From IMG/VR virus record IMGVR_UViG_3300045988_180666: a stretch of 31,872 bases of DNA. One strand, written 5' to 3'. A program made the translations under genes and the position numbers. The notes beneath the pieces were generated by a model. The model was not told the DNA's origin. It did not search any database and saw only the letters and a program-made list of their open reading frames with translations. Positions 7,103 through 31,188 of the stretch are shown in pieces (within the stretch, counting starts at the first letter, position 1; each line of letters starts with the position of its first letter). The DNA is from a virus (Duplodnaviria; Heunggongvirae; Uroviricota; Caudoviricetes).

Positions 7103-7118
7103 ATTTTTTATTTTGATG

Positions 7119-23027: not shown

Positions 23028-24053
23028 TTATGCAAACTGATTTAAAACATCCAACACTTGATCTGAGCAGAAATCCTCGACCTTGGTGTCATCGACAGCA
23101 GTGTGCGTGTCGCCACCAGGCTCTCCCTCCAGATCCTTCACTTTATCCTTCAGGTCATCTCTCTCCTTTTCGAGATTCTTGACCTTAGTCTCTAACTCCT
23201 TCTTCTCGTCCTTGACCTTCTGAAGCTCTGTGTCTTTGTCGGTCACGGCCTTGGAGTCGGCAGCGATCTTATCCTCCAGTTTCTGCATCTGCTCCTGTGA
23301 GATTGTGCAGTTCTTTGCGGAATCTTCTGCCTCAATGCCCTCGATATTGAGGACATTGTTGATGTGAGTCCATTTTTTGATCATATTAATAATTTTATTT
23401 TGTGATTTATCTTTGCCGAATAATCGGTCGATGATGCTTGGCTTTTTATCATACCAGGAGTTAACAACCTCTGGGAGAACAGGAAGGTTGTTGTACTTGA
23501 TGAAGTCTTGCGTCTGCTCGGTGATGTCGGCAGGCTTGCCATCCATGGCTTCATCGACGAGACCCAGTTCGATGCACTCATCGACGGTGTGCCACATCGC
23601 TTCGGACATCACCTTGACGATGTCCTCGTGCTTCTTGCCCGAGCGATCGCAGTAAACGTTGGCGATGATGTTGTCGATTTTCTGCTGGTTCTCTTGCTGT
23701 TTTTGAAGTTGCTCGATGAGCGAGCCTATCTGCTCCTCGTTGAGCGCAGACCACACAAACTGCTCGGTAGAGCACTTGTGTACCAGGAGCAAGCTATATT
23801 TGCTCATGCGAATCTTGCTGGCACCCATCGCACAGATGGTGGCAGCAGAGGCAGAGAAGCCCGCCTGGAAGTCAACGGTCACGTCGCCATGGGACTTGAA
23901 CATCTGACAGATGGCGAGACCTGCGGAGACCTCGCCACCCAAGGAGTCGATGGCAACATCGACGTGCTTATCTTTGTTGGCCTTAAGAACATCGCGAACC
24001 ATGAGCTTGGTCCACGAGCCAATATATCCTGTGATAGAAATTTGGTACTTCAT
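23028..24053 (-). CDS. ClpP-like prohead serine protease fused to coiled-coil scaffold domain
   Basis: 341 aa. The N-terminal half has ClpP/S14-like motifs (DSLGGEVSAGLAI; Ser region QAGFSASAATICAMGA; His region LLLVHKCS). The C-terminal part is a K/E/D coiled coil (KVKDEKKELETKVKNLEKERDDLKDKVKDLEGE). Confidence 0.8.
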   Translation of the reverse strand: MKYQISITGYIGSWTKLMVRDVLKANKDKHVDVAIDSLGGEVSAGLAICQMFKSHGDVTVDFQAGFSASAATICAMGASKIRMSKYSLLLVHKCSTEQFVWSALNEEQIGSLIEQLQKQQENQQKIDNIIANVYCDRSGKKHEDIVKVMSEAMWHTVDECIELGLVDEAMDGKPADITEQTQDFIKYNNLPVLPEVVNSWYDKKPSIIDRLFGKDKSQNKIINMIKKWTHINNVLNIEGIEAEDSAKNCTISQEQMQKLEDKIAADSKAVTDKDTELQKVKDEKKELETKVKNLEKERDDLKDKVKDLEGEPGGDTHTAVDDTKVEDFCSDQVLDVLNQFA

Positions 24054-24087
24054 ATATCTTTGCGATTTTTACGGCGCAAAGATATAT
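24052..24087. promoter_or_regulatory. 13-bp perfect inverted repeat with 10-nt spacer spanning the protease promoter and start codon
   Basis: Arm 24052-24064 (ATATATCTTTGCG) pairs perfectly with arm 24075-24087 (CGCAAAGATATAT). Confidence 0.6.
24077..24084 (-). promoter_or_regulatory. -7 box TATCTTTG upstream of the protease/scaffold gene, embedded in a 13-bp inverted repeat
   Basis: GCAAAGATA lies 24 nt upstream of the ATG at 24053. Confidence 0.5.
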
Positions 24088-24113
24088 AATAATGTATAAG
24101 GATAAAAAAACTT

Positions 24114-24612: not shown

Positions 24613-25197
24613 TTAATCTTTGCTAAATCTTGTTGTAGATGTTAAATTTACGCCTCTTTTTGCGTGTTGATCACGCATTCTGTAGAAACATTGGCGTACG
24701 GTATCCTCGTAATCGATGCCAATGCCATGCTGTTCGCACCATGCCGAAATGAGCGATGAAAGCTTGCATGAGCGGTCGGCGATGTCTTTGAGCGAAGCCC
24801 AGAGATCCATCTTGAAGAGGTCGGAAATCATCTCTTTGACGGCACGTCTGGCACGTGGCCCGAGGTAGTTGTACTCTCGCACAGGCTTAGCCTTGGAGTC
24901 AGGCAGCTCGATGGCAAGATACTCTTCGGGATGGGTGAGCCATCGGCTCTGCTCGAACTCCTCGTCGTGGAAGGTATGCTTGACACTTTGGTGCAGTTGG
25001 CTGGCATCAGCCTGCTGCATCTCTTGGATGTTCTCTTGGTCGATAGGCGATAGGTTGACAACGGGAGGTCTGCTGGTGAACTTGCGGAGCACAGCCACCT
25101 CGTTGCCGATGGCAGGGAAGACCACTGGGTTGCCATAAGCTCGGTAAGCCCATTGTCTGATGTGGGTAGGAACTTTGATGTAAACAATTGGATTCAT
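24613..25197 (-). CDS. hypothetical phage protein, first gene of the late/head operon
   Basis: The track start at 25209 is TTG. The ATG at 25197 (MNPIVYIKVPTHIRQW...) lies about 20 nt downstream of the -7 box at 25218-25225 and gives 194 aa. Confidence 0.55.
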   Translation of the reverse strand: MNPIVYIKVPTHIRQWAYRAYGNPVVFPAIGNEVAVLRKFTSRPPVVNLSPIDQENIQEMQQADASQLHQSVKHTFHDEEFEQSRWLTHPEEYLAIELPDSKAKPVREYNYLGPRARRAVKEMISDLFKMDLWASLKDIADRSCKLSSLISAWCEQHGIGIDYEDTVRQCFYRMRDQHAKRGVNLTSTTRFSKD

Positions 25198-25217
25198 ATA
25201 GCTATGCAATTTTCGTG

Positions 25218-25225
25218 CAAAGATA
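25218..25225 (-). promoter_or_regulatory. -7 box TATCTTTG, candidate late/head operon promoter
   Basis: GCAAAGATA lies 21 nt upstream of the ATG at 25197. Confidence 0.55.
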
Positions 25226-25311
25226 CAAAGAAAATTTGAAATAACTAACGATAATCGGTAAAAACTAACTTTTATCAGTAAATTTGGTGTGATATAATTT
25301 CGTCCGAAAAG

Positions 25312-25600
25312 TTTGTATTTTTGTATCGTACAAACAAGGCTCTGTAACTAGCTGATAATCAATACTATTTTTGTGATACAATTTTCTGATACAGAAATTG
25401 TAACTCTTTAGCTTTTGTAACTTGGGGTTTTGTCGAGGTCGAAGACCTGTAGGAGAAGGGGCTTGTTACAAACTTGAAAAACTTTGTAACAGAGTTGTAA
25501 CGCAACTTTGTAAACATCGGCAAGGCGGCTTAACTCCATCTTTTATAATTATTTACCTCTTTTGCCAACATTATGTTACAGAGTTACAAAGGATTTGTAT
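25312..25600. repeat. iteron-like array of (T)TTGTAAC / GTTACAA(A) motifs
   Basis: TGTAAC-core copies were read at about 25343, 25398, 25415, 25484 and 25495, with a variant at 25508. Inverted copies lie at about 25465, 25575 and 25583. A TTTGTA-tcg-TACAAA palindrome lies at 25320-25334. Confidence 0.6.
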
Positions 25601-25734
25601 AAAATAAAAGAAAGGGGTGTGGGGAAAACGATGGCACGGGGCGTGAAGGAGGATAGGGAAGGCCCATCGAGACACCCAGGACACCCCCATTGGCCAATGG
25701 AGGGGTAGCGAGACGAAACATCGCCCATGGCAAC

Positions 25735-25770
25735 GAAAAAAGGGAGCGACGGCCAATGCGCATCGCTCCC
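25735..25770 (-). terminator. intrinsic terminator downstream of the primase-helicase gene
   Basis: Minus-strand GGGAGCGA-13 nt loop-UCGCUCCC followed by U6. Confidence 0.65.
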
Positions 25771-25878
25771 TCGTAACATGGGAAAAGAATTATAAATCAG
25801 CAAAAATCTGCCTATGAAATCAGCCCTCGTCTGCTTGCAAAAATAGTGAAAAATTGCTTGAAAATTTAGCCGAAAATA

Positions 25879-25910
25879 TTTGCATAATTCAGATATTTTT
25901 TGTACCTTTG
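25879..25910 (+). promoter_or_regulatory. plus-strand consensus promoter (-33 TTTG, 20-nt spacer, -7 TACCTTTG) pointing antisense into the primase 3' end
   Basis: TTTG at 25879-25882 and TACCTTTG at 25903-25910. Confidence 0.45.
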
Positions 25911-25951
25911 CACTATAACTTGGGGCTATCTATTCTATTATATATGGATGG

Positions 25952-28906
25952 CTAGAAAGGTTTATCACTATCTTTATCTACCTTGCTCCAGTCAATGGTA
26001 GATTGATATTCACCCCCAGCTGCAGGGACATCAGCCTTGGCAGCTTGTTTATCCTCTTTTTTATCATCACTCTTCTTGCTTCGGAGATAGATCATCTCGA
26101 CAGGGCTGCCGTCTGGGTTAGCTGGATCGCGTCTGATGATGCGGTGCTGGCTGTTGCAGAGATCAGCTGGGTTCAGCTCTTGGATGTATGGACACAGCTC
26201 GACGAAGGCTCTGAGCTTTTTGGTGAAGCTCTGTGTGGTCGCCTTGTTGATGCCTGAGAACTGCTTGAAGTCATTGAACGCACGCTCTCTCACGATAAAT
26301 GTATCGAGTCGCTCGCTCTCTTCTGAGAAGTAGGATGCAGCCCAGTCTTCGAAGTTGACACCCATGTCGGCCTTGAACTTGCGCTTGATGATGTTATCCA
26401 TCGGTGGCATGATCTTGATAGGTTCGCCAGCCAAGGAGAGATAGAAACGACAGCACTGCAGGAAAAAGTTGATGTCAGCATTCCACTCATCCTCAGTGTA
26501 TGTCTTTGAGAAGAGATCTTCGTCGAAGTCATCACGGATGCTTCGGGTCTCTTGGTAATCATTCTCCTCTGTGCGCTGATGGTAATAGTCGGAGAACACC
26601 ATATAGAGCAGTCTCGCCTCTGAGGAAGGGTCGAAGTCTGCCGGCACGTAGTTGGTGGTGAAGGCAATCTTCGGGCTATCCTCGAAAGGAATTGTGAAGC
26701 TCTGGTTGTTCTTTGGGTTGACTGTCATATCTGAAGTAATGTTATCGTAAAATAAACCTGTGTTGAGATAGCGGTCACAGTCATCGAGGAGCAGCATCTG
26801 GGTGTGCTGTGTCACCTGATCGAAGACGTGTGGGTTGTCCATCAGCTTAGGGTTGCGTCCGGAAAGCTTGACTGTTTTCATCAGCAGTGAAAGCGTCTTG
26901 AAGAAGAAACTCTTACCGGAACGGCCGTTGCACTCGTTGTTTTCACCAATCTTGTTGTCCATCGCCATCGGAGCCCAAGCCCTGGATGGTGCCTTGTAAT
27001 GATGGAGCATGTAGCCGAAGGTGAAAATCTTGTTTATCAAGTTCTGCTTTTGCTCTTGTATCTCGTTGTCGGCAAGCCCTTCGCCAGCGATGTCGAAGAG
27101 GTGTGCCTTGTGGTATGCCTCTTTCTCCTCGATGCTCTTGTCCTCAAAAGCATACTCTAGCTCTTTGCGCCAGTAGGTGCGAGAGGCGTTGATGAGATAG
27201 CCGAAGAAGTGGGACTTCACGTTCTTGACCTCGATGTCGAACTTCGGCCTGCCATCCTCGTCGATGGTTCGGGTGATGGAGAACATGTCATCCAACTTCT
27301 TGAAGTTGTGGTTGATGACATTCTCTTGCCAAACATAGTTTTTGAGCGAGCTGCCCTCACGCTGGTACTCGTTTAGTCCATCTTTGGTGACCTCGACGCT
27401 GACACGAGGGAAGAAGAACAACTGCGAGTGGTTGGTGTAGCTGGTGAAGTCTAGCGTAATCTCTTGGAGCGAGTCGAGCGCCGATGCCGACAGCTTTGGC
27501 GTGTTGAGCACCAAGTTAAGGATGTCACGCTTCTCAGCTCTCTCGATGACCCATTGGCGGCAGAACTCACGGATGTCTCTCGTGGTGATGAGCTTGACGA
27601 TGTTGCCCGTGATGCGAACATATTTGGTGATGGTCGAGTTGTCATCGTGCAAGGTATAGAAACCATTGAGACGAAGAAAATTGTAGAGGCACGCCGTGTC
27701 GATGTAGTGGTCCCAGGTGTTAGCCTTTTTGTTGAGCTTGCTCACCCAAAATCGGGCTGGCATCGCCAGTGTCATGAGGTTGCGGAAGTCTTTGCGAGTA
27801 TTGCGCAGCTCCATCCAGTCTCGCAGGTCTTTGCGCCCCTTGCCACGGTTGTCGTGGTAGGTGCGAAGCCAAGAAGGCAACCATATCGTATGGATGTCGA
27901 TGAAGCGCAGGGCAAGCTCTGTGCCCTTGGCGATGCCCGTCTCGTCGATGTCGGGTATATTGTAGAGCACCTCGACATACTTCATAATCTCTCGGTACTC
28001 CTCGTCGCTGAGCTTGTAGGTCTCGGAGTTGAACCATAACGGGTTGTAGCCCATGGAACGGCAGCAGAGACTGTCACGCTCGCCACTGCAGATGAAAGCC
28101 TCGGGAAGTTTCTTCTCCTTGTAAGGCTTGGACTCGTCTGTGTTGGTCTTGTTGTACTCAGCCTCTTCACGGCGGTTGAACTCGTGATAGGCAGCCTTCA
28201 GCTCAGCTAGGCCATTGATGTATTGCTTAGGCTTGATGCCGTCTGGGGTGTAAGAGAATCGCCACTGCTTTTGGTAGTTGAGAGGCTCATATATCTTGTA
28301 GAACTTAACCTCAGGCTTGTCGCCTTCAGCTGGGCGAACCAAGCACTCACGCATAAAGATAGGGTAGTGCTCGTTGCTGTGCTTAATCTTGACCTTGCGG
28401 TCTTTGACGTATCCTATCCACTTGGCGGAATGCCAGTTGAGCGCATCGACGTGCTCTTGCTTGACGTTTGGACCCAGTACCTTCAGTTCATCTTCGGTGA
28501 ACTTCTCGTTCAGCTCGAAAGGTCTGGTACCATCTTTCTCGTTGATGGTGGCATCACGCTCTGTGAACGTAGGCTTGTTGACCTCTTTTTTGAGTTCATC
28601 GCTAACGTTGTATTCGGAAGCCAGTCGCAGGATAGCATCAGGAAAGCGGTCGATGCACTTCTCTCTCATGTAGAGGTCGATAGGTGACTCGGCAGATCCG
28701 TCGCCGCCGAAGTCTGTCACTCGCCAGCAGTCTTTGAACTTTTTGAGACTGCAGGAAGGTGTTTTCTCATTGCGGATGGCAAAGTGCTTTTTAGGCGTGC
28801 CAGTCGTGCAATATTTCTGGATGCATTCTTTTGCGTCCGGGTATAGTGAGATGATGATGTCGAGACCATCATCTGTAGCTTGATAAATTTGTTCTGCTTT
28901 GATCAT
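25952..28906 (-). CDS. DNA primase (Toprim) fused to SF3 (P4/D5-like) helicase
   Basis: The track start at 28936 is TTG inside the promoter, so the ATG at 28906 (MIKAEQIYQATDDG...) is preferred. The Toprim-like segment is FICSGERDSLCC...LYNIPDIDETGIAKG. Walker A is ECNGRSGKSFFFK and Walker B is QMLLLDDCD. Confidence 0.8.
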   Translation of the reverse strand: MIKAEQIYQATDDGLDIIISLYPDAKECIQKYCTTGTPKKHFAIRNEKTPSCSLKKFKDCWRVTDFGGDGSAESPIDLYMREKCIDRFPDAILRLASEYNVSDELKKEVNKPTFTERDATINEKDGTRPFELNEKFTEDELKVLGPNVKQEHVDALNWHSAKWIGYVKDRKVKIKHSNEHYPIFMRECLVRPAEGDKPEVKFYKIYEPLNYQKQWRFSYTPDGIKPKQYINGLAELKAAYHEFNRREEAEYNKTNTDESKPYKEKKLPEAFICSGERDSLCCRSMGYNPLWFNSETYKLSDEEYREIMKYVEVLYNIPDIDETGIAKGTELALRFIDIHTIWLPSWLRTYHDNRGKGRKDLRDWMELRNTRKDFRNLMTLAMPARFWVSKLNKKANTWDHYIDTACLYNFLRLNGFYTLHDDNSTITKYVRITGNIVKLITTRDIREFCRQWVIERAEKRDILNLVLNTPKLSASALDSLQEITLDFTSYTNHSQLFFFPRVSVEVTKDGLNEYQREGSSLKNYVWQENVINHNFKKLDDMFSITRTIDEDGRPKFDIEVKNVKSHFFGYLINASRTYWRKELEYAFEDKSIEEKEAYHKAHLFDIAGEGLADNEIQEQKQNLINKIFTFGYMLHHYKAPSRAWAPMAMDNKIGENNECNGRSGKSFFFKTLSLLMKTVKLSGRNPKLMDNPHVFDQVTQHTQMLLLDDCDRYLNTGLFYDNITSDMTVNPKNNQSFTIPFEDSPKIAFTTNYVPADFDPSSEARLLYMVFSDYYHQRTEENDYQETRSIRDDFDEDLFSKTYTEDEWNADINFFLQCCRFYLSLAGEPIKIMPPMDNIIKRKFKADMGVNFEDWAASYFSEESERLDTFIVRERAFNDFKQFSGINKATTQSFTKKLRAFVELCPYIQELNPADLCNSQHRIIRRDPANPDGSPVEMIYLRSKKSDDKKEDKQAAKADVPAAGGEYQSTIDWSKVDKDSDKPF

Positions 28907-28933
28907 AATTCTTTTCCATTGTAAATTTGCTTG

Positions 28934-28964
28934 CAAAATTATTGCAAAGCGAGTTCAAAACAAA
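28934..28964 (-). promoter_or_regulatory. promoter of the primase-helicase gene (-33 TTTG, 19-nt spacer, -7 TAATTTTG)
   Basis: Plus-strand CAAAATTA at 28934-28941 and CAAA at 28961-28964. The ATG at 28906 is downstream. Confidence 0.6.
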
Positions 28965-28968
28965 ATAC

Positions 28969-29088
28969 TTATTTTTTGTCGCATAGAGCCTTTGGCTCAT
29001 ACTCGACGTATCTGTGGAGAGGGTGGCAGTATCTGCCATTGATGCAGTTGCTGCCATCCTCGCACTTTTGGCATTTAATCGGTGGCAT
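28969..29088 (-). CDS. possible 39-aa Cys-rich (zinc-ribbon-like) peptide
   Basis: Hand translation gives MPPIKCQKCEDGSNCINGRYCHPLHRYVEYEPKALCDKK. The ATG at 29088 overlaps the end of 29075..29386 by 14 nt. It is below the ORF-track size cut-off. Confidence 0.3.
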   Translation of the reverse strand: MPPIKCQKCEDGSNCINGRYCHPLHRYVEYEPKALCDKK

Positions 29089-29386
29089 CGACTTTTATAT
29101 CAAAAGTGTCGTTGTGTAGCAACATCTTGGTATGAACATAAATTGGCTTTTGCTCATCCTCATCCCATCCAACCTCTCGGAAGTCTCTGCCATCGATATA
29201 GCATTCGGTGGCGTATCCTTTGTCGGTCCACTCTACGATATGGTCTTTGTCGAACTCGTCTCTTGCTGGCACTGTAGCCAGAACACGAGTGCCAAACTTG
29301 CTGTAGCTAATCTCGTGTATGGTTACGTTAGGATATTTCTCGATGATTGCCTCCTCGATAGATTTTGTCTTAGTCTTCTTTTTCAT
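29075..29386 (-). CDS. hypothetical early phage protein
   Basis: 103 aa with an ATG start, part of the early leftward operon. Confidence 0.55.
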   Translation of the reverse strand: MKKKTKTKSIEEAIIEKYPNVTIHEISYSKFGTRVLATVPARDEFDKDHIVEWTDKGYATECYIDGRDFREVGWDEDEQKPIYVHTKMLLHNDTFDIKVDATD

Positions 29387-29576
29387 TGTTCTTCATTCTG
29401 AATTTAACAATACCTGCCACGATGCCGTCTTCTTGGTCATCGTAGAACATATTTAAATCTGTTGTGCCCTTATGGAGTGTACCATAGGACACGTCAACGG
29501 CAACGCTGGCATCCTCGAAATCTTTGAGGATGGCTTGAAGCTGTTTGCTGTTGCATCTGACTGTCATTTTTCCCAT
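29370..29576 (-). CDS. hypothetical early phage protein
   Basis: 68 aa, overlapping both neighbours by 13-17 nt. Confidence 0.45.
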   Translation of the reverse strand: MGKMTVRCNSKQLQAILKDFEDASVAVDVSYGTLHKGTTDLNMFYDDQEDGIVAGIVKFRMKNNEKED

Positions 29577-29788
29577 GATCCATCATTGATAATTTGCTCG
29601 ATGACCTCTCTGTCGATGGCACGCCAAGTATTGGTGCGCATCTTATTGTAGATGGTGTTCTGGCTCATCTCTAGCTTTAGCTGCAGTGTGGCCATGAACT
29701 TGCTTCTCTTTTTGCGTGGTATCTCATTATACCATGCGAGGATGATATTTTCATCATCATTTTTTTGTTTTTTTCTTGCATATTCCAA
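29564..29788 (-). CDS. small HTH-like early protein (Cro/excisionase-like position)
   Basis: 74 aa, first ORF after the leftward early promoter. The segment RSKFMATLQLKLEMSQNTIYNKMRTNTW looks HTH-like. The only start at the 5' end is TTG, so the start is uncertain. Confidence 0.45.
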   Translation of the reverse strand: MEYARKKQKNDDENIILAWYNEIPRKKRSKFMATLQLKLEMSQNTIYNKMRTNTWRAIDREVIEQIINDGSWEK

Positions 29789-29798
29789 TATTTATTAT

Positions 29799-29806
29799 TA
29801 ATTTTG
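29799..29806 (+). promoter_or_regulatory. -7 box TAATTTTG, candidate rightward promoter for the repressor gene
   Basis: The plus-strand TAATTTTG is separated by 3 nt from the leftward -7 box. The repressor ATG is at 29903. Confidence 0.4.
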
Positions 29807-29809
29807 TTG

Positions 29810-29817
29810 CAAAGTTA
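29810..29817 (-). promoter_or_regulatory. -7 box TAACTTTG, leftward early promoter
   Basis: Plus-strand GCAAAGTTA lies 22 nt upstream of the first early ORF. Confidence 0.5.
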
Positions 29818-29902
29818 GTAATAAAAATCGGAAAATACTAACGAAAGTAAGTAAAAACACCTACGATAATAGGTTAAATATTATTAATTAAATTAGGTAA
29901 TT

Positions 29903-30280
29903 ATGTTTAATGGTCAGATAATCAGAAAGTTAATGTCGGATGCTGGCTTAACTAAAAAAGAGTTTGAAAGACGTATGTTCGGTAGTAAATCGACCGACCT
30001 CAACCATTTGGAAAAAGCGAAGAATCTTCGCAGTGACACTCTCGAACGTCTGCGTGATGTGTTGAAGTGCTCTATGGATGACTTCTTTACAGCACCCTCA
30101 TGGGCTGAGAACGGAAAGGGGACAGTCGTAGGCTCTAACAATGTGCTGTCAACAGTAGCCATCGGCAACGAAGTGATGGAAGCCCAATATCTCAAGGAGT
30201 TGCTCTTGGAGAAGGACAAACGCATCAGCACTTTGGAAAATTATATCAAGCTTCTGGAGACTAACTTAAATAAGGACTAA
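29903..30280 (+). CDS. XRE-family HTH regulator, putative prophage repressor
   Basis: 125 aa, the only phage gene on the plus strand and divergent from the early operon. The N-terminal HTH is IIRKLMSDAGLTKKEFERRMFGSKSTDLNHLEKAKNLRSDTLERLRDVLKCSMDDFF. The C-terminal part is a coiled coil (QYLKELLLEKDKRISTLENYIKLLE). Confidence 0.75.
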   Translation: MFNGQIIRKLMSDAGLTKKEFERRMFGSKSTDLNHLEKAKNLRSDTLERLRDVLKCSMDDFFTAPSWAENGKGTVVGSNNVLSTVAIGNEVMEAQYLKELLLEKDKRISTLENYIKLLETNLNKD

Positions 30281-30510
30281 TACGAAACATAATTCGTAAG
30301 ATGAATCCTTATATATAATAAGGTGTATAAAATATATCGTATAATCTCAGCAGTGATATCCAACTCGTTAGTCCTGCCGCCGCAACTAGTTTCGGGTAAG
30401 AAGTTGGTAAACAACATCTTATCCGATTTCTGTTTTTCTATTGGAACTATATCAGAACGAAATACTTTCCATTCCACATTCCTTTGATATTCAATATTTA
30501 ACACTTATTA

Positions 30511-30542
30511 TTTGCGTATATTGAATAAAAGTGCTACTTTTG
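30511..30542 (+). promoter_or_regulatory. host TetR gene promoter (-33 TTTG, 20-nt spacer, -7 TACTTTTG)
   Basis: TTTG at 30511-30514 and TACTTTTG at 30535-30542. The ATG at 30592 follows. Confidence 0.55.
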
Positions 30543-30591: not shown

Positions 30592-31188
30592 ATGTCAATA
30601 TCAAAAACTAGACAGAAATTAGTGGATGTCGCTCGACAACTCTTTGCAAAGAACGGAATCGCCAATACAACGATGAATGACATCGCTGTGGCTTCTGGTA
30701 AGGGACGTCGCACGCTTTATACCTATTTTAGTCGTAAGGAGGACGTCTATTACGCAGTGATAGAGTCGGAATTGGAGCGCCTTTCTGACAAACTTGACGA
30801 AGTGGCCGCCAGTAAGATTCGACCTCAAGACAAAATCATCGAATTGATTTATACCCACTTGAGCATGATCAAGGAGACTGTTGTCAGAAATGGAAATCTG
30901 AGAGCTGAGTTCTTCCGCAATATTTGGATGGTGGAAAAGGCTCGCAAGAATTTCGATGAAGACGAGATAGAACTTCTCAGGAAGGTTTATTCCGAGGGCA
31001 AGGCGGACGGCGAGTTTGACATCGATAATGTAGATTTGGTGGCTGACATCACACACTATTGCATCAAAGGTCTCGAAGTTCCGTTTATCTATGGGCGATT
31101 GGGACATGGCTTGAACGTGGAGTCGAGCAAACCGCTGGTTGCCAAGGTTGTCTATGGTGCTTTAGGAAAGTCGGGAATGAAGTTGTAA
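30592..31188 (+). CDS. TetR/AcrR-family transcriptional regulator (host)
   Basis: The track start at 30547 is TTG; the ATG at 30592 gives MSISKTRQKLVDVARQLFAKNGIANTTMNDIAVASGKGRRTLYTYF, the canonical TetR N-terminal HTH. A consensus promoter and a palindrome lie just upstream. Confidence 0.85.
   Translation: MSISKTRQKLVDVARQLFAKNGIANTTMNDIAVASGKGRRTLYTYFSRKEDVYYAVIESELERLSDKLDEVAASKIRPQDKIIELIYTHLSMIKETVVRNGNLRAEFFRNIWMVEKARKNFDEDEIELLRKVYSEGKADGEFDIDNVDLVADITHYCIKGLEVPFIYGRLGHGLNVESSKPLVAKVVYGALGKSGMKL

What the first reader, a model, noticed from the sequence alone, without database searches (positions are those of the whole stretch)
29799..29858. Face-to-face overlapping -7 boxes form a compact immunity switch, and the same geometry recurs at the primase promoter
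TAATTTTG-ttg-CAAAGTTA (29799-29817) places a rightward -7 box (towards the XRE repressor) and a leftward -7 box (towards the early operon) 3 nt apart, so the predicted start sites cross. RNA polymerase can hardly occupy both, which would make the two promoters mutually exclusive. A 6-bp inverted repeat TTAGTA-N15-TACTAA (29815-29841) overlaps the leftward promoter's upstream region and could be the operator. The same quasi-palindromic arrangement is seen at 28922-28941 (TAAATTTG-cttg-CAAAATTA) on the primase promoter. TTTG-N3-CAAA cores flank the boxes at about 7113, and a degenerate TTTC-N3-CAAA at about 25213.
Basis: partly seen in the sequence, partly recalled or inferred. Interest (0 to 1): 0.5.

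Follow-up and report, generated by a model that had tools for sequence, protein, structure and literature searches.

The report
Interleaved two-way promoter in prophage switch

Summary
TAATTTTG (29799-29806, +) and TAACTTTG (29817-29810, -) face each other 3 nt apart between the XRE repressor gene and the first early gene of a Segatella copri prophage.

This is far above chance. It is kept in 34 of 35 close relatives. Full pairs, or pairs with TAnnTTTA, occur in all 10 distant repressor clusters that have this gene layout. Only the consensus positions of the -7 box are conserved on both strands. The rightward box often has a -33 TTTG at the correct spacing. Both boxes therefore look like promoters, not a protein-binding palindrome.

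With starts about 5 nt after each box, the two transcripts diverge, and each start lies inside the other box. This is an interleaved bidirectional core.

The proposed operator, TTAGTA-N15-TACTAA, is not conserved. The likely operators are two 16-bp palindromes, 29837-29852 and 29859-29874. They sit on the -33 region of the leftward promoter, co-vary with the repressor type, and recur at 25244-25279 upstream of a second leftward promoter.

The copy at the primase promoter is not conserved.

Competition between polymerases is inferred, not shown.

Verdict: partly supported; a new variant of known switch and bidirectional-promoter designs.

The parts
29799..29806 (+). Rightward -7 box TAATTTTG, the proposed promoter of the repressor gene. 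Predicted start is about 29810-29813, giving a leader of about 92 nt.
   Evidence: Exact match to TAnnTTTG. It reads TAACTTTG in 31 of the 35 relatives and the consensus positions never change. A box or TAnnTTTA sits at the same place in all 10 distant clusters with this layout.
29810..29817 (-). Leftward -7 box TAACTTTG followed by CA, the early (lytic) promoter. Predicted start is about 29803-29806, giving a leader of about 23 nt to the ATG at 29781.
   Evidence: It has the extended form TAnnTTTGCA shared by the other leftward promoters of the window. It is intact in every distant cluster.
29775..29778 (+). -33-like CTTG, 20 nt upstream of the rightward box. It abuts the start codon of the first early gene (TTGCAT).
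   Evidence: A TTG lies 18-21 nt upstream of the rightward box in 8 of 13 rows, 5 of them full TTTG. The leftward box has one in only 2 of 13.
29780..29836 (.). Imperfect 57-bp palindrome centred on the two boxes. It is read here as two similar T-rich promoter spacers laid head to head.
   Evidence: 27-nt arms, 81% complementary. DNA hairpin -7.5 kcal/mol, z = -3.0.
29837..29852 (.). O1, proposed proximal repressor operator ACTAACGAAAGTAAGT. It begins 19 nt from the leftward box and so occupies that promoter's -33 position.
   Evidence: Its sequence changes with the repressor group.
29859..29874 (.). O2, proposed distal repressor operator ACCTACGATAATAGGT, 22 bp centre to centre from O1.
29873..29893 (.). 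AT-rich block GTTAAATATTATTAATTAAAT just upstream of the repressor ATG, invariant within the family. Function is unresolved: a translation-initiation region or a protein-binding site.
   Evidence: It has no conserved TAnnTTTG.
29903..30280 (+). Repressor gene, 125 aa. It has an N-terminal Cro/C1-type HTH and a C-terminal stretch with a heptad-like pattern, and no peptidase domain.
   Evidence: Pfam HTH_26, E = 7e-7; PHROG transcriptional repressor. Residues 27-45 differ between immunity groups.
29564..29788 (-). First early gene, a small Cro-like protein of 72 aa in relatives. In the window the ATG at 29781 is out of frame by one base of an A-run.
   Evidence: Weakly conserved across clusters. 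No Pfam or PHROG family.
25244..25279 (.). O3 (25244-25259, ACTAACGATAATCGGT) and O4 (25264-25279, ACTAACTTTTATCAGT), a second operator pair in the same layout. O3 lies 18 nt from the -7 box at 25218-25225.
   Evidence: these and O1/O2 are the only four sites in the window that match ACYNAYNNNNRTNRGT. They co-vary with the immunity-region operators.
25218..25225 (-). -7 box TATCTTTG of the promoter of the 198-aa gene, whose likely start is the ATG at 25197. It has no full facing box.
28934..28941 (-). -7 box TAATTTTG of the primase-helicase promoter (ATG 28906), conserved in all relatives.
28922..28929 (+). Facing box TAAATTTG at the primase promoter. It is not conserved and is probably incidental.
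   Evidence: other groups read AAAATTCG, AAAATCTG or AAAACTGC.

Best explanation
The region 29775-29874 is the control region of a Segatella copri prophage immunity switch.

**The core.** Two Bacteroidota sigma(ABfr)-type -7 boxes are interleaved head to head. The left box fires rightwards, through a leader of about 92 nt, into the repressor gene. The right box fires leftwards, through a leader of about 23 nt, into the early operon. Each predicted start lies inside the other box. The transcripts therefore diverge, but the two polymerase footprints coincide almost completely, so only one orientation can be occupied at a time.

**The operators.** The repressor has an HTH domain and, probably, a coiled-coil dimerisation stretch. 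I propose that it binds two 16-bp palindromes, O1 and O2. These lie at about -33 to -70 of the leftward promoter, which is about +27 to +64 of the rightward one.

**How it would work.**
- Bound repressor shuts the leftward promoter by occupying its -33 position.
- By removing that competitor, it leaves the core free for the rightward (repressor) promoter.
- At high occupancy it may also slow its own transcript by acting as a roadblock.
- The same repressor controls a second leftward promoter 4.6 kb away through O3 and O4.

**Shown:** the sequences, their conservation pattern, and the co-variation of operators.

**Inferred:** that both boxes fire, where transcription starts, that the repressor binds, and that polymerases compete.
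For: **Host and promoter type**
- TAnnTTTG is enriched in the window.
- Relatives lie in Segatella copri genomes.
- S. copri primary start sites carry this -7 box in over 70% of cases, a -33 box in only 15%, and the mean 5' UTR is 69-76 nt.
- In B. thetaiotaomicron the commonest leader is 23 nt.

**Conservation of the pair**
- Present in 34 of 35 close relatives.
- I looked up 11 distant repressor representatives (26-51% identity), chosen by protein similarity only. Ten have an upstream control region of this kind.
- Of those ten, 5 have full pairs with a gap of 3-4 nt (L340, L341, L344, L346, L349). Four have TAnnTTTA with a gap of 3 or 5 nt (L338, L343, L345, L348). One has a full pair with a gap of 17 nt (L347).
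- A further family, L171/L328-331, whose repressor is 28% identical, has the same layout.

**Evidence that both boxes are promoters**
- Only the consensus positions are conserved. The 'nn' bases and the gap differ and are not symmetric.
- The rightward box has (T/C/A)TTG 18-21 nt upstream in 8 of 13 rows.
- The distance from the rightward box to the repressor ATG is kept at 79-96 nt, with one case of 118 nt.
- The intergenic region has no other conserved TAnnTTTG on the + strand.

**Operators**
- Exactly 4 sites in the window match the pattern, against about 0.4 expected.
- They have the same layout at both promoters, 18 or 19 nt from the -7 box.
- They change together with the repressor's HTH region across immunity groups.

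**Background rate**
- Facing pairs occur at about 1-3% of boxes in control loci.

**Precedents for competition at overlapping opposed promoters:**
Against: - No transcription start data exist for this prophage. Supplementary files of the S. copri dRNA-seq paper held nothing usable.
- Four distant clusters have A instead of the final G in the rightward box, and its effect on activity is unknown.
- L348 has an additional canonical rightward box nearer the repressor gene, and L347 has a 17-nt gap, so the tight interleaving is not universal.
- In E. coli, bidirectional promoters compete only when one direction is strongly active.
- Repressor bound downstream of the rightward start could repress it rather than favour it.
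- Within the close family the whole 29787-29822 block is invariant, so that family cannot separate the two boxes.
- The L171 family was found through the palindrome itself, which is an ascertainment bias.
Confidence: 0.6

Rival explanations
1. Only the leftward box is a working promoter. The rightward box is a silent or very weak by-product. The repressor is transcribed from a non-canonical promoter close to its ATG, for instance inside the invariant AT-rich block 29873-29893, perhaps giving a nearly leaderless mRNA.
For: - The block 29873-29893 is invariant in the family.
- The window has a one-mismatch box, TAAATTAG, at 29889-29896, which would put the start at the ATG.
- Four distant clusters have an imperfect rightward box, and L348 has a second canonical box nearer the gene.
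- S. copri has about 35 leaderless mRNAs.
Against: - The near-box at 29889-29896 is not kept in other groups, which read TAAATGCT, TAAATGGT or TAAATTGT.
- The rightward box, its -33 TTG and its distance to the ATG are conserved across clusters at 26-51% identity. A silent by-product would not be.
- Control boxes rarely have a facing partner.
Confidence: 0.2
2. The 8-3-8 palindrome is the binding site of a symmetric DNA-binding protein, such as the Cro-like early protein or a host factor. It overlaps the early promoter, and the rightward 'box' is only the mirror image that such a site requires.
For: - The palindrome is perfect (TAACTTTG-TTG-CAAAGTTA) in most relatives and extends into 27-nt arms.
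- A homologous small Cro-like protein accompanies the module in all clusters.
Against: - Across clusters the bases that stay fixed are exactly the TA..TTTG consensus positions.
- The 'nn' bases differ between the two arms (AT/AC, TA/TC, AA/TA, AT/CC, AA/TT) and the gap sequence varies.
- The Cro-like proteins are only 13-34% identical to the window's copy, so a shared specific site is unlikely.
- The gap is 3, 4, 5 or 17 nt.
Confidence: 0.12
3. The palindrome acts as a DNA cruciform or an RNA hairpin, for example as a terminator or processing site, and not as a pair of promoters.
For: The DNA hairpin is -7.5 kcal/mol with z = -3.0. Another box-containing palindrome at 24051-24088 may act in that way.
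Against: - It lies between divergent genes, so no known transcript crosses it.
- Transcripts that start at either box would contain only one arm.
- It is all A-T apart from 2-3 pairs.
- The repressor leader RNA is not unusually structured, z = -0.29.
- Arm complementarity outside the consensus positions is not maintained across clusters.
Confidence: 0.03

Closest known systems
Ecl18kI restriction-modification control region (Protsenko et al. 2009, PMC2760811)
   Same: Two divergently oriented genes have promoters that face one another. An operator-bound protein excludes RNA polymerase from one promoter only. The other promoter is controlled by direct competition between promoter complexes.
   Different: - It uses sigma-70 promoters.
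- The R start lies opposite the M start codon, so the promoters are further apart.
- The regulator is the methyltransferase.
- It is not a phage switch.
- In the present case nothing has been measured.
Prokaryotic bidirectional promoters (Warman et al., PMC12825309)
   Same: A pseudo-symmetric core drives divergent starts a few to about 25 bp apart (classes at 10, 18 and 23 bp). Two polymerases cannot bind together. Competition arises when one direction is strong.
   Different: There the symmetry comes from one shared, nearly palindromic -10 hexamer. Here the -7 octamer is asymmetric, so two separate copies are needed. They are kept head to head by selection and tied to a repressor/early-gene pair.
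[quoted passage not shown]
   Same: The lytic and lysogenic promoters point at each other. Repressor operators lie over the lytic promoter. The first early gene is a small DNA-binding protein.
   Different: In P2/186 the promoters are 40-60 bp apart and the genes converge, so transcripts overlap and interference comes from elongating polymerases. Here the boxes are 3 nt apart, the starts have crossed and the genes diverge.
Lambda OR (back-to-back PR and PRM with shared operators)
   Same: - Divergent repressor and cro-like genes.
- Multiple palindromic operators.
- A second operator cluster kilobases away (lambda OL).
- Different immunity groups have co-varying operators.

   Different: - The promoters here are interleaved, not back to back.
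- The operators lie on one side only.
- The repressor has no S24 peptidase domain.
- Any self-stimulation would come from relief of competition, not from contact with polymerase.

Membership tests
Bacteroidota sigma(ABfr)-type promoter (-7 TAnnTTTG, -33 TTTG) | TAnnTTTG octamer a few bases upstream of the start | tested here: met
   Exact matches on both strands, at 29799-29806 and 29810-29817.
Bacteroidota sigma(ABfr)-type promoter (-7 TAnnTTTG, -33 TTTG) | TTTG about 19-21 nt upstream of the -7 box (optional; present at about 15% of S. copri start sites) | tested here: inconclusive
   The rightward box has CTTG at a 20-nt spacing in the window and full TTTG in 5 distant clusters. The leftward box has TTAG, which is part of O1, at that position.
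Bacteroidota sigma(ABfr)-type promoter (-7 TAnnTTTG, -33 TTTG) | A mapped transcription start downstream of the box | not testable with these tools
   No 5'-end data for this prophage.
Bidirectional promoter in the sense of Warman et al. | Opposed core elements that give divergent starts within about 25 bp | tested here: met
   Met at sequence level only. The predicted starts, about 29811 and 29805, are 4-10 bp apart.
Bidirectional promoter in the sense of Warman et al. | Both directions produce RNA, and polymerases exclude each other | not testable with these tools
   Requires 5'-end mapping and in vitro transcription.
Lambdoid CI/Cro switch | Back-to-back promoters with shared operators between them | tested here: not met
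   The boxes are head to head. O1 and O2 lie only on the repressor side.
Lambdoid CI/Cro switch | Repressor with a C-terminal S24 (LexA-like) self-cleaving domain | tested here: not met
   Pfam finds only HTH_26 in a 125-aa protein.
P2/186-type face-to-face switch | Convergent lytic and lysogenic promoters 40-60 bp apart with overlapping transcripts | tested here: not met
   The gap is 3 nt, the genes diverge, and the predicted transcripts do not overlap.
XRE/Cro-C1 family phage repressor | N-terminal Cro/C1-type helix-turn-helix | tested here: met
   HTH_26 over residues 7-63, E = 7e-7, above the curated cut-off. PHROG 3, transcriptional repressor.
XRE/Cro-C1 family phage repressor | Binds palindromic operators at the promoters it controls | tested here: inconclusive
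   Four 16-bp palindromes co-vary with the HTH region and are placed identically at two promoters. Binding itself was not tested.

The most novel reading that the evidence does not exclude
A large superfamily of Bacteroidota prophages uses a contact-free bistable switch. The lytic and the repressor promoters share one polymerase-sized site in opposite orientations. The repressor would then stimulate its own synthesis purely by evicting polymerase from the lytic orientation, through an operator that replaces the lytic -33 element. The strength of the maintenance promoter would be tuned by the last base of its -7 box (G or A) and by the gap (3-5 nt).
Probability: 0.35. Interest if true: 0.7.

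Novelty: new variant of a known kind. Interest (0 to 1): 0.55.

Why it matters
Lysogeny control in Bacteroidota phages is almost unstudied at the promoter level, yet prophages of this type are very common in Segatella copri: one repressor variant alone is recorded on at least 1000 contigs.

A conserved, compact control region of about 100 bp, with identifiable promoters and operators, gives three things:
- a directly testable model of how these prophages hold and release lysogeny;
- a rule for recognising immunity regions and immunity groups in gut metagenomes;
- a small bidirectional, repressor-switchable part for engineering Bacteroidota, whose promoters differ from the E. coli type.

It would also extend the idea of competing bidirectional promoters to a phylum whose core promoter element is asymmetric.

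Tried and rejected
- **Phage database.** A DNA search of the annotated phage collection with 28800-30300 found nothing.
- **Gap-length scan.** Gap 3 was not enriched (3 of 120 rows) among viruses of all hosts, so the scan says nothing about Bacteroidota. About half of the 77 exact N3 hits were unrelated coding-region matches.
- **Wider protein-pattern searches.** Scans of viral contigs with repressor alignments returned only the same family, the L171 family and unrelated Firmicutes-type HTH genes.
TTAGTA-N15-TACTAA was rejected because it is not conserved.
- **Direct repeat.** AAATATTATTA flanking the region is seen in relatives but occurs only once in the window. I left it unresolved.
- **RNA explanations.** There is no Rfam hit in the window, and the repressor leader is not unusually structured.
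- **Cro-like protein.** No Pfam or PHROG family, even at E = 1.
- **Start-site data.** Supplementary files of the S. copri dRNA-seq preprint contain no sequence or prophage entry that I could map.
- **P0128 (L342).** This homologue sits next to a HicA toxin gene with an 8-nt gap. That is a different context, so I excluded it.

Full report
**1. What the window is**

The window is a prophage of a Bacteroidota host.
- The -7 promoter motif TAnnTTTG occurs 37 times against 12 expected.
- Almost all long genes run leftwards. They include a head-maturation protease (23028-24053) and a 984-aa primase-helicase-like protein (25952-28906).
- The right end carries host genes: a TetR regulator (30592-31188) and the beginning of a further gene from 31332 that I did not analyse.
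- Relatives of the repressor lie in Segatella copri genomes. One variant is named as a Segatella copri helix-turn-helix regulator and is recorded on at least 1000 contigs.
- The repressor gene (29903-30280, 125 aa) has a Cro/C1-type HTH at residues 7-63 and no other domain.

**2.

TAATTTTG lies at 29799-29806 (+). After ttg, CAAAGTTA lies at 29810-29817, which reads TAACTTTG on the minus strand. The other quoted sequences are also present.

Facing pairs this close are not expected by chance. With the observed number of boxes placed at random, 0.06 pairs with a gap of 5 nt or less are expected and 2 are seen (P about 0.002). None of 2000 block shuffles gave 2.

In 148 kb of other Bacteroidota-type phage loci, only about 2 independent sites among 183 boxes have a facing partner 3-5 nt away.

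The pair is the centre of a 57-bp imperfect palindrome.

**3. Geometry**

In B. thetaiotaomicron and S. copri the motif is centred at about -7, so transcription starts roughly 4-7 nt after the final G.
- The rightward start is then near 29810-29813.
- The leftward start is near 29803-29806.

The consequence is that the two transcripts diverge and do not overlap. Each start lies within the other box, and each promoter's upstream region lies in the other's leader. Polymerase footprints would coincide almost entirely.

The leftward leader to the ATG at 29781 is about 23 nt, the commonest length in B. thetaiotaomicron. The rightward leader is about 92 nt, which is ordinary for S. copri, where the mean is 69-76 nt.

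**4. Close relatives**

I fetched thirty-five related loci with repressors 64-100% identical.
- The block TATTATTAACTTTGTTGCAAAGTTAC is invariant, and the pair is present in 34 of 35. L032 has one change, in the leftward box.
- The 'nn' bases differ between arms: TAAT/TAAC in the window and TAAC/TATC in L031.

What varies between groups lies just to the right: two 16-bp palindromes.
- In the window these are ACTAACGAAAGTAAGT (29837-29852, O1) and ACCTACGATAATAGGT (29859-29874, O2), 22 bp centre to centre.
- In the 65%-identity group they read ACTAATATCTTTTAGT and ACTAATAGATATTAGT. Other groups differ again.
- The repressor's residues 27-45, the HTH region, differ between the same groups.
Its right arm is the left half of O1.

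**5. A second operator pair**

The pattern ACYNAYNNNNRTNRGT matches exactly four sites in the window against about 0.4 expected: O1, O2, and two at 25244-25259 and 25264-25279. The pattern was drawn up after I had seen all four sites, so this count overstates its significance.

The second pair lies upstream of the leftward promoter at 25218-25225, which serves a 198-aa gene of unknown function, and it has the same layout:
- distal operator, 4-6 nt, proximal operator, 18 or 19 nt, then the -7 box.

The proximal operator therefore sits where the -33 element belongs.

Across 40-odd loci the operators at the two places change together. Examples are ACTAAC..GTTAGT against ACTAAT..ATTAGT. This is the real connection between the '25213' site and the immunity region.

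**6. Distant relatives, chosen by protein similarity only**

A full HMMER search of 1.8 billion representatives gave about 35 full-length homologues at 26-51% identity. I looked up 11 of them. Ten have an upstream control region of this kind. One (L342) sits in a toxin-antitoxin-like context.

Of the ten:

| Pattern | Loci |
|---|---|
| Full facing pair, gap 3-4 nt | L340, L341, L344, L346, L349 |
| Leftward box intact, rightward TAnnTTTA, gap 3 or 5 nt | L338, L343, L345, L348 |
| Full pair, gap 17 nt | L347 |

A further family, L171/L328-L331, has a repressor 28% identical to the window's and the same layout. It was found through the palindrome itself, so it is not an independent sample.

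Across all of these:
- the conserved bases are exactly the consensus positions on each strand;
- the 'nn' bases and the gap sequence vary and are not mirror images;
- the distance from the rightward box to the repressor ATG stays at 79-96 nt, with one case of 118 nt;
- palindromes of cluster-specific sequence begin about 19-21 nt beyond the leftward box.

The rightward box has (T/C/A)TTG 18-21 nt upstream in 8 of 13 rows, five of them full TTTG. The leftward box has one in only 2 of 13, because an operator occupies that place.

The small first early gene is weakly conserved across clusters, 13-34% identical to the window's copy, with a helix-turn-helix-like pattern. It matches no Pfam family.

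**7. Interpretation**

The conservation pattern is what two sigma-recognised promoters would show. It is not what a palindromic protein site or a hairpin would show. The leader RNA is not unusually structured, and the DNA hairpin is weak.

I conclude that the rightward box is most likely the repressor's promoter and the leftward box the early lytic promoter, sharing one polymerase-sized site.

I propose that repressor on O1 and O2 blocks the leftward promoter at its -33 position and so leaves the core to the rightward promoter. Bound at +27 to +64 of its own transcript, it may also limit itself.

That opposed overlapping promoters compete is established elsewhere: the Ecl18kI system and E. coli bidirectional promoters, where competition appears when one direction is strong. 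Here it is an inference.

**8. The primase promoter and the other 'cores'**

The leftward -7 box of the primase promoter is conserved in all relatives. The facing TAAATTTG is present only in the window, L001-L003 and L097. Other groups read AAAATTCG, AAAATCTG or AAAACTGC. A distant phage, L095, has a similar pair at its own primase promoter, so a weak tendency cannot be excluded. It is not a conserved design in this family, and no operator-like site accompanies it.

The sequences at 7113 and 25213 are TTTG or TTTC followed by the C-A-rich start region common to this phage's promoters, which read TAnnTTTGCA.

**9. Comparison with known systems and novelty**

The arrangement works like known competing or bidirectional promoters, and like phage switches with operators over the lytic promoter. 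It is neither the lambda layout (back to back, shared operators, self-cleaving repressor) nor the P2/186 layout (40-60 bp apart, convergent).

Full-text searches found no description of such a core in Bacteroidota phages.

I rate it a new variant of a known kind, of moderate interest. Its value lies in the breadth of its conservation and in how directly it can be tested.

Noticed in passing
window 29760-29788: The first early (Cro-like) gene appears frameshifted in this copy. The T-run at 29760-29766 is one base shorter than in L001-L003, so the ATG at 29781 is out of frame and the reading frame is open only from TTG at 29788. This could be a homopolymer sequencing error, a disabling mutation or phase variation.
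   Followed up: partly
window 25200-25950: A 740-nt non-coding stretch lies just downstream of the primase-helicase gene. It holds at least 8 copies of an ACTTTGTAAC / GTTACAAAGT-like motif in both orientations and several -7 boxes on both strands. These are candidate replication-origin iterons or small-RNA genes. There is no Rfam match.
   Followed up: partly
window 28930-28955 and the same place in L013, L015, L099: An inverted repeat GCYTGC-N14-GCARGC brackets the primase -7 box. It shows a compensatory change between groups (GCTTGC..GCAAGC against GCCTGC..GCAGGC). It is imperfect in the window. It could be a site for another regulator or a hairpin in read-through RNA.
   Followed up: partly
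window 24051-24088: There is a 12-14 bp palindrome, TATATATCTTTGCG-N10-CGCAAAGATATATA. One arm is the -7 box of the protease/scaffold gene and the other abuts its ATG at 24053. The 'nn' bases co-vary in L035 (TAAC..GTTA). Read-through transcripts would fold over the start region, whereas transcripts from the gene's own promoter would not.
   Followed up: partly
window 24613-25197 and 25244-25279: A 198-aa gene of unknown function at the head of the structural-gene block seems to be under direct repressor control, through its own operator pair 4.6 kb from the immunity region. This resembles the two operator clusters of lambda and leaves room for DNA looping.
   Followed up: partly
window 29873-29893: A 21-nt AT-rich block directly upstream of the repressor ATG is invariant in all family members, while its flanks vary. 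In relatives, part of it (AAATATTATTA) is repeated directly just left of the rightward box. Its function is unknown.
   Followed up: partly
L032 (about 2898-2916) and L329 (about 1371-1389): Two relatives carry a point change in a consensus position of the leftward (lytic) box: TATCTTTA in L032 and TAATTTCG in L329. Their rightward box is intact. These may be prophages with a weakened lytic promoter.
   Followed up: no
L135 3484-3502 (also L137, L183, L192, L195): An unrelated phage group has TAACTTTG-TAG-CAAAGTTA in a gap of about 40 nt (39 nt in L135) between the start codons of two divergent genes of 154 and 155 aa. Each box is about 20 nt from the gene it faces. This is an independent example of the same head-to-head promoter core outside immunity regions.
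   Followed up: partly
window 30281-30540: The prophage seems to end within about 250 nt after the repressor stop codon, with no integrase gene on this side. Several distant relatives (L338, L340) have an integrase directly downstream of the repressor instead.
   Followed up: no
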